64,000 nt of DNA from Sphyrna mokarran (taxonomy: Eukaryota), in NCBI GenBank assembly GCA_024679065.1, contig JAGIQG010000020.1, positions 8,804,001 to 8,868,000 on the forward strand, in the 5' to 3' direction. How positions within the stretch are numbered: the stretch's first letter is position 1; each line of letters opens with the position of its first letter. This document shows positions 9,001 to 12,000 of this stretch, in pieces. Position numbers: made by a program.

Positions 9001-12000
9001 TTCGTTTGTTTTAACTGGAGCGTTGGAGTTTGAGGAGACCTGATAGAAGTCTGCAAGCTTATGAAAGGCATGGAAAGAGTGGATAGTCAGAAGCCTTTCT
9101 CCCCGTCAGTTGCTAGGGGGCATAGGTTTAAGGTGCGAGGGGCAAAGTTTAAAGGAGATGTACGAGGCAGATATTTACAGAGGATAGAGTGCCTGAAACT
9201 CATTGCCGGGGGCGGTATGGAAGCAGATATGGTAGTGACTTTTAAAGGGTGTCTTGACAAGTACACGAATAGAATGGAAATAGAGGGTTATGGTTGCCGT
9301 AAGGGTAGGATGTTTTAGTTAAGTCGGCAGCGTTGTCGGTGCAGACTTGGAGGGCCAAAGGGCCTGTTCCTACGCTGTAATTTTCTTTGTTCTTTTGAAT
9401 GTAATTCCAGCGCATTAAATCGGGCTACAAGAGCAGCGCTTGACACAGACTGAACCAGCATATCGCTTTCATAAAATCATGGAATTCTACAGCATCTAAG
9501 GGACCGACATTGGCTTATAAAAAAAACCCTGCTCACTTCGCTGATTTCTATGCCTGTTGTTTTTCACTGTTGAAATGTTTATCGTCTTGCTAATTATAGT
9601 TCCGCTCGCGGTGTTCATACAACTAGGGCACTCTGCTCCTAACACTAACTGAGCGAATGAAAACATCCCATCTTTCTAGCAATCCGCATTCAAATCATCT
9701 CCTTGGGCTGCCGACTGGATCAGGTGGCGCAAAATTCTGGACAGTCCCAGCAGAGCAGACCGGGATTGCACACACTCCAGAAAAGTTCTGAACCCAGCTA
9801 TCGCTGCAATATCATTGGCTGCTGAATCAAAGATCCCCCATAAAAATATTTTATGACCAATCATTTTGATTGCCACTAATTCAATCCACTTATCCGACCG
9901 TTTCGAGGAAATTTTGTTCTTAAGACAGCGTCACAAATGTTTGAGACATTTAGGTGATTTACTTACTGTCCAGATTCAACTTCGTTCCTCTCCCGAAAAT
10001 GAAACTATATGGACTGCTGGTATATCGAGCACCACAGTAGTAATCTGCAGCATCCTCCGACAGCACGTTGGTGATGGTTAAATCCATCTTGTTACTCGAT
10101 GAGTCCACAGACCCGGCGAATCGATCTGGAATACCCGAAGCCATACCATCGTACTGGGACCAAACAAGCACAGGGGCACTGCCGGGTTTCTGCCAGTACC
10201 AGCTCGCGTAGTAGCTGCCAATGCTGCCTCCGGACATGGTGCAAGTGATGGTGACGGTCTTTCCCGGTGAGGACGAAATGGATCCTGGTTGGGTCAGGAC
10301 AGGATCCGCAATCGCACCTGGTGAAATGCAAAGTATTGTCAGTCAAACACTGTGAAATGTTAAATATAGCTTACAATTCAGGTTCGTTAAAACACAAGCG
10401 CAAAAGCAAATAACGTGAAGAAAATGTGTTACTTCAGCTTGACGCCCGTACTTACTGTGAAAACAGAGTAGCAGTGCGGCGAGAACTCCAATCGATTGTG
10501 TCATGGCGAAGGTTTGGGGAGAGGCAGAAGACAAATAAATCCTGACACGAACGCGCTTCTGAGTCCATTCCAACCTCTCCTTAAAAAGATTCAAACACGG
10601 CAGGGCGAATGAATATTAATTACGTATGCAAATTTCCTGGCACGTGATAGTAGGCCGAATATCTCCATTTCGGTATTGTCTGATATTTTCAAGATGCTCA
10701 CGATAGTCATTTTGGAAAAGAAGAAATATAAACCTTCCAAGCCACAGAACAGCATGCAAAATGGCTCAATACCCAATTAACCCCCCCTCCCCCCCAAAAA
10801 AAACGTTGTGATAAAACATGAAGAGATTAAATGAATCGTGGCTTGATCTCTGGAAGCCTGCAGATTACAATAAATAAATATTGCGGACAGTAAGGCGTCC
10901 AAGAACGTCCCTGGTGAAAAAATTAGAGAAGAAAAGTGTGAGTTGAGATTTCATGTGCACACAGAGGGGTGTAAGGGAATTAAACACACTCCATATTGGC
11001 TTCTCGGCATAGTTAGATAGATATGTAGAGATGGATAAAAATAAAGATAGATAGATGTAGAGATAAATAAATATGGATAGATAGGTAGATAGATAGAAAA
11101 AGCAGTGGATAGATAGAAAGAAAAAGCAGTGGGTAGATACATAGATAGATAGATAGATATCTGATGAGCAAATGATAAACAAGCCACGAGGAATATTTTA
11201 TTACCTACTGGTATGCGTTTGAGGCGCCAAAACTGTCTACTCAACACTATTCAAGTGTTGAAAATCCACGGCACCCAAAGTGAGTTAAGTCTTGGCAAAA
11301 TGAAATGCTCGAGGAAACAAAACTTTTCGCATGATTTGTGTTGGTGGATTTGAGGGGTACATTTGCTGTCATGGGGAAGAATGAGTTTGAGATTGTCAGT
11401 GCATTGGCCGACGGAGAAATGAGCTGAAAATAGCAATTCTTTAAAATCAGATTTTTGATGGCAGGTGACCCTTCACATCACACCACCTTCTCCTCTCACG
11501 ACAGGGTTAACAAGCCATCGTACAATGTTCCATTGCCTCCTGATTTGAAAAATAAAACAAAAGAGGCAAGCACTTCAAATGTTGATAACGTTTGCTTGCC
11601 ACACATCTTCACCCCAAGTATTCTTGAACAATTATGAGAAATAACACGTTAGTTATGCAGTTGAGGCGCACAGAGGAGAACGAGAAAAAAATGAACTAAT
11701 TACTTCGCCTGGAGAATTAACGATAGCGGCTGCAGATGCAGTTGCGTCAGTATAAAGAATTCGAGAAGAATTCATCGCCGAAAGAGAGCAATCAGCCCAT
11801 CGCTTCCATGTCGCTTCTGTAAAGGAGACATGGAACTGGAATTTCTGCCTTGATCTTACTCCAGTGTTCGACATATTTTCCACTTTTTTTGACAGTGATT
11901 GTTACATCCTCTTCCGCTAGCCTCTGATCCAGTTGTCTCCAGATCATTAAGAGTTGGAACATATTTACCCACCACCGGCCCTCTTCTGTTCCTGCTCCCG

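What the first reader, a model, noticed from the sequence alone, without database searches (positions are those of the whole stretch)
9980..10720. Identity step inside the V exon: cluster 1 looks like a crossover chimera (germline CDR shuffling of pre-joined VJ genes)
Seen: on the C side, units 1 and 2 are nearly identical (hand counts: 3/120 differences at 1-120, 0/120 at 6121-6240, 6/120 at 9841-9960, 0/102 over late FR3-CDR3-J at 9980-10081). On the 5' side they diverge: CDR2 is unrelated, the L-V intron has ~15/138 differences, 10631-10720 has 18/90, and the remaining upstream flank looks similarly diverged. Inference: this is the product expected from unequal crossover in FR3 between two older tandem genes A and B, giving (3'B|5'A) followed by intact B. 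Genes that cannot use RAG recombination could thus gain new CDR1/2 x CDR3 combinations in the germline.
Basis: partly seen in the sequence, partly recalled or inferred. Interest (0 to 1): 0.72.

Follow-up and report, generated by a model that had tools for sequence, protein, structure and literature searches.

The report
Mosaic tandem shark lambda light-chain genes
Two neighbouring pre-joined shark antibody light-chain genes are near-identical from just before the V exon to beyond the constant exon, differ strongly upstream, and carry unrelated, ancient CDR2 loops.

Summary
The window holds three germline-joined Ig lambda (type II) VJ-C clusters of a carcharhiniform-like shark; it is not human.

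The step is not in FR3. With exons and promoter masked, the maximum-likelihood break is at 10362 (2-lnL support 10339-10398), inside the leader-V intron.

The CDR2 difference is a separate island (outer 10083-10168, core 10133-10159) inside an otherwise near-identical VJ exon. Each unit's CDR2 segment matches lambda chains of other species far better than its own neighbour: unit 1 matches a sandbar shark chain at 19 of 21 residues, and unit 2 matches a Heptranchias chain at 20 of 20 with one gap.

Best reading: one long non-allelic exchange ending in the L-V intron, plus a CDR2 patch either spared or re-imported by short-tract gene conversion. Cluster 1 does look mosaic, and germline reshuffling of CDRs among pre-joined genes has cross-species support. 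The single FR3 crossover does not. The flank left of the window, any donor gene and the reads stayed unchecked.

The parts
1..10361 (-). Young block of unit 1. It covers the 3' flank, C exon, J-C intron, VJ exon and the last roughly 45 nt of the L-V intron. It is 96.2% identical to unit 2 (22399 to about 32349) and runs off the left edge of the window.
5466..5788 (-). C-lambda exon of cluster 1 (C1-set domain, stop codon included). It differs from the unit 2 exon at 4 codons inside the exon (2 synonymous, P33R, Y64F) and at its first base, 5788, in the split codon.
9967..10317 (-). Germline-joined VJ exon of cluster 1. One open frame runs from FR1 through CDR3 to the J motif FGRGTKLNL and a GTAAGT donor, with no recombination signal.
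10083..10168 (-). CDR2 island: 18 mismatches plus a 3-nt indel in 86 nt. The core, 10133-10159 (codons 53-61), is unrelated between the units. Outlying differences are L50F, A67T, one synonymous change and D78L.
10169..10317 (-). FR1-CDR1-FR2 of cluster 1. It has only 2 differences in 149 nt from unit 2 (one synonymous, plus A37T). This contradicts an FR3 step.
10339..10398 (.). 2-lnL support interval for the young/old break, inside the L-V intron (10318-10455). The maximum-likelihood point is 10362, with exons and promoter masked.
   Evidence: all-site interval 10341-10640
10456..10634 (-). Leader exon (10456-10504), 5'UTR and promoter up to the octamer ATTTGCAT (10626-10633). Divergence is intermediate at 12/176. 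The octamer and a TATA-like block are also conserved in cluster 3.
10635..21801 (-). Old block: the upstream flank of cluster 1, about 82% identical to 32625-42603, with several large indels from repeat copies.
22399..42603 (-). Unit 2 (cluster 2): C exon 27416-27738, VJ exon 31958-32305, CDR2 island 32074-32156, leader exon 32446-32494, octamer 32616-32623.
50088..53589 (+). Cluster 3, a germline-joined lambda gene of another subfamily on the opposite strand: leader 50088-50136, VJ exon 50289-50639, C exon 53267-53589. It served as an outgroup and is not the CDR2 donor.

Best explanation
Units 1 and 2 are tandem germline-joined Ig lambda VJ-C clusters that began as an old duplicate pair. Upstream flanks differ at 17.7% of sites (Jukes-Cantor 0.20).

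Later, one long non-allelic homologous exchange made the whole gene body identical in both units. This was either an unequal crossover or a long conversion tract. It ran from within the leader-V intron (about 10340-10400) through the VJ exon, J-C intron and C exon, and at least 5.4 kb of 3' flank. The block has since diverged by 3.8% (Jukes-Cantor 0.039).

The promoter, leader exon and most of the L-V intron of each unit kept their older lineage.

The CDR2 loop is a separate patch, with a 27-nt core and an 86-nt outer limit. Either it was spared in that exchange, for example by patchy repair of a badly mismatched heteroduplex, or it was re-imported afterwards from another lambda cluster by short-tract gene conversion. 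Selection for paratope diversity then kept it.

The result is two light chains with the same CDR3-J, the same CDR1 apart from one residue, and different ancient CDR2 loops, in a gene system that has no V-J rearrangement.

Shown: the two-age structure, the position of the break, the island, and the old age of both CDR2 types. Inferred: the kind of exchange, its direction, and the role of selection.
For: Gene structure and family:
- V-set and C1-set domains are present, V and J sit in one exon, and no heptamer-spacer-nonamer match occurs in the window.
- The best protein hits are shark lambda chains. Mustelus asterias reaches 84% and Carcharhinus plumbeus 82% on the V exon. C. plumbeus reaches 95-96% on the C exon.

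The step:
- Alignment, profile and change-point analysis all show it.
- The BIC-best model has four segments: 4.1% up to 10131, 52% over 10132-10159, 6.1% over 10160-10634, and 18% from 10635 on.
- The neutral-site break is at 10362, with 2-lnL support 10339-10398.
- Intron bases 10346-10458 have 14/113 differences. This rejects the young rate (P = 9e-5) and fits the old rate (P = 0.08).

A single event:
- In the young block the count per 250 columns has a dispersion index of 1.27 (P = 0.10), once 2700-3800 beside a 414-bp indel is dropped.

The island:
- It is flanked by 1/116 and 2/149 differences.
- Unit 1's 21-residue CDR2 segment matches sandbar shark P0136 at 19 of 21. P0136 belongs to another subfamily and has a different CDR3.
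- Unit 2's segment matches Heptranchias P0045 at 20 of 20 with one gap.
- Unit 1 against unit 2 scores only 10. Each unit was compared with 91 segments.

Concerted evolution outside CDR2:
- A tree of 22 full-length rows, built without the CDR2 columns, groups rows by species.
- It rejects a single clade for the six rows with unit 2's CDR2 type (delta lnL 97.5, p-AU 2.5e-8).
Against: - With 2700-3800 included, the young block is overdispersed (index 2.3, P = 5e-6). Several conversion events cannot be excluded.
- The stretch 10346-10634 has intermediate divergence (26/290, 9%). It fits neither age cleanly and may record a third event or constraint.
- On all sites the best single break is 10637, at the octamer edge, only 1.4 lnL better than 10345.
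- No donor for either CDR2 was seen in this genome. Cluster 3 is not one.
- In the 90-row V-only tree, well-supported branches force only 2 changes of CDR2 type. The wide-scale reticulation claim therefore rests on the 22-row set.
- The groups in that 22-row set were named after the sequences had been seen.
- Some database rows are cDNAs that may carry somatic mutations.
- The protein-level four-gamete counts can include homoplasy.
Confidence: 0.7

Rival explanations
1. One unequal crossover in FR3 between two older tandem genes A and B gave (3'B|5'A) followed by intact B. Cluster 1 would then pair A's CDR1/CDR2 with B's CDR3-J-C.
For: - FR3-CDR3-J and everything 3' of it are near-identical (0/102 and 1/116).
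- CDR2 is unrelated and the upstream flank is old.
- A break at 10081 appears in the 3-segment model, whose BIC is nearly tied with the 2-segment one.
- Heterodontus paralogues show four-gamete patterns between CDR2-side and CDR3-side columns. Exchanges between CDR2 and CDR3 therefore do occur in this family.
Against: - FR1-CDR1-FR2 has 2/149 differences (P = 1.4e-10 at the old rate). On synonymous sites alone P = 0.008.
- The 28 intron bases next to the exon are identical.
- A break at 10081 is 7.2 lnL worse than the best break.
- The BIC-best model makes CDR2 an island.
- The model needs a second event, conversion of about 180 bp, to fit. It then no longer shuffles CDR1.
Confidence: 0.12
2. 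The whole gene was duplicated recently. CDR2 then diverged in place by point substitutions under strong diversifying selection, with no exchange involved.
For: - Of the 11 codon substitutions that fall outside the CDR2 core across the VJ exon and C exon, 5 are replacements (A37T, L50F, A67T, D78L, P33R, Y64F against 6 synonymous; that is 6 replacements if Y64F and P33R are both counted).
- The abstract of PMC2192082 reports that germline-joined skate light-chain genes differ mainly in CDRs, with replacements exceeding neutral changes.
Against: - Eight consecutive codons changed by 16 nucleotide differences, plus a codon indel, within 27 nt, while neutral sites changed by 3.8%.
- Both versions match CDR2 segments of other species and orders nearly residue for residue. 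Neither is a new in-place product.
Confidence: 0.03
3. Assembly artefact. The consensus of one or both units switches between paralogous lambda clusters, or a third copy was collapsed. This would create the step and the island.
For: - Tandem 22-kb repeats at 96% identity are hard to assemble.
- No reads were available to check this.
Against: - The units differ throughout by substitutions, by indels and by a 414-bp insertion, so they are not a false duplication.
- Both genes are intact, with open frames and canonical splice sites.
- Both CDR2 versions are genuine types seen in other species.
- The same kind of mosaic appears in annotated proteins of other genomes.
Confidence: 0.05

Closest known systems
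Germline-joined Ig lambda (type II / NS3) VJ-C clusters of cartilaginous fishes, first described as a sandbar shark genomic clone
   Same: - The layout is leader exon, short intron, one fused VJ exon, an intron of several kb and one C exon.
- No recombination signal is present.
- Sequence identity is 82% (V) and 95-96% (C) to Carcharhinus plumbeus lambda chains.
[quoted passage not shown]
   Different: The genes themselves are ordinary members. What is added here is the DNA-level history of two tandem copies. The original sandbar shark paper (PMC47676) is not held, so I could not see what it says about CDR differences.
Concerted evolution of tandem multigene families by unequal crossover or gene conversion, with a selected segment kept diverse
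   Same: - A long homogenised block lies next to an old flank.
- Paralogues group by species outside the CDR2 columns.
- The antigen-contact segment keeps types shared across species.
   Different: - The preserved segment is a single 27-86 nt CDR2 patch inside a pre-joined VJ exon.
- The comparison with germline conversion among mammalian V genes and with MHC genes is recalled from general knowledge. It was not tested or read here.
CDR-focused germline diversity of joined light-chain clusters in skate (type I genes of Raja)
   Same: Many joined clusters differ preferentially in CDRs, with replacement changes exceeding neutral ones (abstract of PMC2192082).
   Different: It concerns another isotype, and only the abstract and reference list are held. 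The abstract mentions neither mosaic tracts nor dated homogenised blocks.
Somatic Ig gene conversion from pseudogene donors in chicken
   Same: Short templated patches replace CDR-containing stretches of a pre-assembled V(J) gene. The mechanism is mentioned in passages of PMC2193156.
   Different: - The event here is in the germline and between functional-looking genes.
- It is inferred from evolution, not seen in B cells.
- No donor was identified.

Membership tests
Chondrichthyan Ig lambda (type II) germline-joined cluster | V-set variable domain and C1-set constant domain on separate exons | tested here: met
   Pfam V-set scores 3.1e-15, 1.5e-15 and 2.2e-16. C1-set scores 3.3e-25 and 6e-26. 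Each exon was searched on its own.
Chondrichthyan Ig lambda (type II) germline-joined cluster | V and J fused in the germline, with no recombination signal between them | tested here: met
   One open frame runs from FR1 to FGRGTKLNL and a GTAAGT donor. There are 0 matches to heptamer-spacer-nonamer in 64 kb. That pattern is exact, so diverged signals would be missed.
Chondrichthyan Ig lambda (type II) germline-joined cluster | Closest relatives are shark lambda chains | tested here: met
   The top elasmobranch hits are named lambda: Mustelus asterias 84% and Carcharhinus plumbeus 82%. C exon identity to C. plumbeus is 95-96%.
Single unequal-crossover chimera with its break in FR3 | One identity step located in FR3 | tested here: not met
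   The break is at 10362 (support 10339-10398) on neutral sites. It is 10637 (support 10341-10640) on all sites, and 10081 is 7.2 lnL worse.
Single unequal-crossover chimera with its break in FR3 | All sequence 5' of the break is at the old divergence | tested here: not met
   FR1-CDR1-FR2 has 2/149 differences. On synonymous sites there is 1 difference against 6.4 expected, P = 0.008.
Single unequal-crossover chimera with its break in FR3 | A third unit on the left carries a near-identical copy of cluster 1's 5' half | not testable with these tools
   The young block runs off window position 1. The genome collection on offer holds only bacterial and archaeal genomes.
Short-tract germline gene conversion at CDR2 | A diverged patch flanked on both sides by near-identical sequence | tested here: met
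   The island has 18 mismatches plus a 3-nt indel in 86 nt. Its flanks have 1/116 and 2/149 differences. The BIC-best segmentation isolates 10132-10159.
Short-tract germline gene conversion at CDR2 | A donor elsewhere in the same genome carries the same tract | not testable with these tools
   The only other lambda gene in the window, cluster 3, is not the donor. In another species the same CDR2 type sits in a different subfamily: P0136, 19 of 21.
Concerted evolution of paralogues | Outside the selected segment, paralogues within a species are closer than same-type genes across species | tested here: met
   In the 22-row tree without CDR2 columns, one clade for the Y-type rows is rejected (p-AU 2.5e-8) and 3 changes are forced by well-supported branches. 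The 90-row V-only tree is weaker, with only 2 changes forced.

The most novel reading that the evidence does not exclude
In chondrichthyan lambda genes, which are all pre-joined and cannot recombine V with J, a small set of CDR2 cassettes has persisted since before the shark, ray and chimaera lineages split. The rest of each gene is repeatedly homogenised within species. Germline short-tract conversion and crossover move these cassettes, and the CDR3-J ends, between clusters. That would amount to a RAG-independent combinatorial diversification carried out over evolutionary time, and the window would show one such event at DNA resolution.
Probability: 0.35. Interest if true: 0.62.

Novelty: new member of a known kind. 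Interest (0 to 1): 0.42.

Why it matters
Shark lambda light chains are encoded by genes already joined in the germline, so how they gain binding-site diversity is an old question.

This locus shows at nucleotide level that a whole gene body can be copied between neighbouring clusters while one antigen-contact loop stays different. Both loop versions are ancient types shared across cartilaginous fishes.

If the pattern holds genome-wide, germline exchange plus selection on CDR cassettes would be a measurable source of repertoire diversity in genes that never rearrange. It would also warn that trees of these genes are segment-dependent.

As a single case it is an expected outcome of known recombination processes in tandem Ig genes.

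Tried and rejected
- **Cluster 3 as CDR2 donor.** Aligning the three V exons shows it is not the donor for either unit.
- **Single change point on all sites.** It gave 10637 with a wide interval. It mixes constrained and neutral sites, so I repeated it with exons and promoter masked.
- **Ninety-row V-only tree.** It needs 13 changes of CDR2 type, but well-supported branches force only 2. It is too poorly resolved to carry the claim, so I built a 22-row full-length set.
- **Dispersion test as proof of one event.** The result depends on dropping 2700-3800, so it is only suggestive.
- **CDR3 length class against CDR2 type.** I used it to judge which unit is the mosaic. Four of the 5 non-window rows with a 12-residue CDR3 carry the Y type. 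The rows are related, so this is weak.
- **Literature.** Four searches found no paper in the held library describing CDR2 cassettes preserved against homogenisation in shark lambda genes. The sandbar shark genomic-clone paper is not held. For the 1993 and 1995 J Exp Med papers only abstracts and reference lists are held. This is not evidence that the point is unpublished.
- **Genome collection.** It holds bacteria and archaea only, so I ran no scan there for further clusters or a donor.

Full report
**What the window is**

The window has no N. It carries three immunoglobulin light-chain clusters.
- Clusters 1 and 2 lie on the minus strand in tandem.
- Cluster 3 lies on the plus strand.

Each cluster has a 49-nt leader exon and a short intron. 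One exon then encodes FR1 through CDR3 and the J motif without interruption, and a C exon lies several kb away.

The V exons match Pfam V-set and the C exons match C1-set. No heptamer-spacer-nonamer signal is found anywhere in the window.

The best protein matches of the V exon are shark lambda chains: Mustelus asterias at 84% and Carcharhinus plumbeus at 82%. The C exon is 95-96% identical to C. plumbeus lambda.

This is therefore a carcharhiniform-like shark lambda (type II) locus, not a human contig. Two reviews say that all lambda genes of cartilaginous fishes studied so far are germline-joined (passages read in PMC5192425, and PMC4279169). The spliced model was never joined for a search. 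Each exon was searched alone.

**Checking the observation**

Unit 1 (1-21801) and unit 2 (22399-42603) are direct repeats.

The identity profile shows two ages:
- about 96% up to roughly 10450;
- about 80-85% from 10700 to 21800.

A single change point improves the log-likelihood by 497 units. The step is real and is not chance.

**Where the step is**

FR1-CDR1-FR2 (10169-10317) differs at only 2 of 149 positions, and the adjoining 28 intron bases are identical.
- At the old rate of 17.7% this has P = 1.4e-10.
- On synonymous sites alone there is 1 difference in 36.3 sites against 6.4 expected, P = 0.008.

The BIC-best segmentation of 7000-13500 has four segments:

| Segment | Divergence |
|---|---|
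| up to 10131 | 4.1% |
| 10132-10159 | 52% |
| 10160-10634 | 6.1% |
| 10635 onward | 18% |

On all sites the best single break is 10637, with 2-lnL support 10341-10640. A break at 10081 is 7.2 lnL worse.

The leader exon, 5'UTR and promoter are probably constrained. The octamer and a TATA-like block are conserved even in the distant cluster 3. I therefore masked exons and promoter:
- The break then falls at 10362, with support 10339-10398, inside the L-V intron.
- A break anywhere in the masked V exon is 5.1-6.2 lnL worse.
- A break at 10635 is 7.35 lnL worse.

Intron bases 10346-10458 (14 of 113 differ) reject the young rate (P = 9e-5) and fit the old one (P = 0.08). The stretch 10346-10634 as a whole stands at 9%. 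That is intermediate, and I cannot say whether constraint or an extra event explains it.

**The CDR2 island**

Within the VJ exon the differences are as follows:
- 4 synonymous changes;
- four single replacements: A37T, L50F, A67T and D78L;
- a full replacement of codons 53-61, with a one-codon length difference.

The outer limits are 10083-10168, which hold 18 mismatches plus a 3-nt indel in 86 nt. The flanks have 1/116 and 2/149 differences. Cluster 3 is not the source of either version.

**Both CDR2 versions are old**

I compared the 20-21-residue segment around CDR2 with 91 other segments.
- Unit 1 matches sandbar shark P0136 at 19 of 21. P0136 is a lambda chain of a different subfamily, with another FR1 and a short CDR3.
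- Unit 2 matches Heptranchias P0045 at 20 of 20 with one gap.
- Unit 2's type (VWY-E/G/Q-SS-(T)RG) recurs in rays, skates, Squalus, Callorhinchus and Hydrolagus.
- Unit 1 against unit 2 scores only 10.

In-place point mutation since the recent event is therefore not a credible source of the island.

**Concerted evolution outside CDR2**

I built a tree of 22 full-length rows with the CDR2 columns removed. The rows were Heterodontus, Mustelus, C. plumbeus, three Squalus and the two window V exons. I left out the cluster-3-type subfamily, P0032 and P0035.
- The tree groups rows by species.
- Well-supported branches force three changes of CDR2 type.
- One clade for the six rows with unit 2's type is rejected (delta lnL 97.5, p-AU 2.5e-8).

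There are three caveats:
- The groups were named after I had seen the sequences.
- The window rows fill only 45% of the columns.
- The larger 90-row V-only tree is poorly resolved. It needs 13 changes, but well-supported branches force only 2.

Among six Heterodontus paralogues, 12 of 21 pairs of informative columns show all four combinations. Among eight Mustelus paralogues, 2 of 55 do. These are protein-level counts and may include homoplasy.

**Mechanism**

The most economical history has three steps.
1. An old tandem pair arose.
2. One long non-allelic exchange ended in the L-V intron and made the gene body and 3' flank identical.
3. The CDR2 patch was either spared in that exchange or brought back by a short conversion tract, and was kept by selection.

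A single long event is suggested by the even divergence of the young block (dispersion 1.27, P = 0.10). That holds only after dropping 2700-3800 beside a 414-bp indel. With that stretch included the block is overdispersed (index 2.3, P = 5e-6).

Unequal crossover and long-tract conversion cannot be told apart here. The young block runs off the left edge of the window.

Unit 2 may hold the older pairing. The 12-residue CDR3 class with the SSPY motif goes with its CDR2 type in 4 of the 5 other rows that have it. This is weak evidence.

A single FR3 crossover is contradicted. A two-event version remains possible: an FR3 crossover, then conversion of about 180 bp of FR1-CDR1-FR2. It gives the same mosaic, but it would not shuffle CDR1.

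The broader idea has support. Pre-joined genes do gain new CDR combinations through germline exchange.

**What stayed unchecked**

- The sequence left of the window, the other lambda clusters of this genome, and any donor.
- The reads.
- Expression of the two genes.

Supplementary files were not consulted and none bears on a claim here. The original sandbar shark genomic paper is not held.

**Verdict**

This is a real, well-defined mosaic of two tandem shark lambda genes, produced by known kinds of germline recombination. Interest is moderate. It would rise if the CDR2-cassette pattern holds genome-wide.

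Noticed in passing
window 50088-53589 (+): A third germline-joined lambda cluster of another subfamily lies head-to-head with cluster 2. Its V exon is 85% identical to Mustelus asterias P0078, and the CDR3-J stretch GAWDYTVGGFVFGKGTKLYVG is identical between the two genera.
   Followed up: partly
window 9967-10060 and 31958-32051 (CDR3-J): The 12-residue germline CDR3 of units 1 and 2 ([12 protein letters not shown]) resembles those of Hydrolagus P0061 (GARLRSSPYTFL) and Hypanus P0031 (GAGYTSSPYTVT). 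This hints that the joined junction itself is very old.
   Followed up: partly
window 2985-3398: Unit 1 carries a roughly 414-bp insertion that unit 2 lacks. It has copies at 16731-17097 (84%) and, inverted, at 13847-14248 (74%). It is probably a repeat element that moved after the recent homogenisation, and mismatches cluster beside it.
   Followed up: no
window 46371-47545, 334-1499, 22732-23896, 8843-9395, 30822-31387: These are copies of a retroelement at 75-77% identity in both orientations. The open frame at 46536-47180 matches reverse transcriptase RVT_1 at 8.7e-09.
   Followed up: partly
window 5788 and 27738: The first base of the C exon differs between the units (A against G). The codon split across the J-C intron therefore reads Asn in cluster 1 and Ser in cluster 2. 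This is described only; the exons were not joined.
   Followed up: no
window 6025-6032 and 27975-27982 (-): A second octamer ATTTGCAT sits in the J-C intron about 240 nt upstream of the C exon in both units. The window total of 8 matches is not above chance (5.7 expected), so this may mean nothing.
   Followed up: no
proteins P0016, P0130-P0133, P0019 (Heterodontus francisci): Six paralogous lambda chains at 90% or more identity show identical CDR2 motifs paired with different CDR3 motifs, and the reverse. Of 21 pairs of informative columns, 12 show all four combinations.
   Followed up: partly
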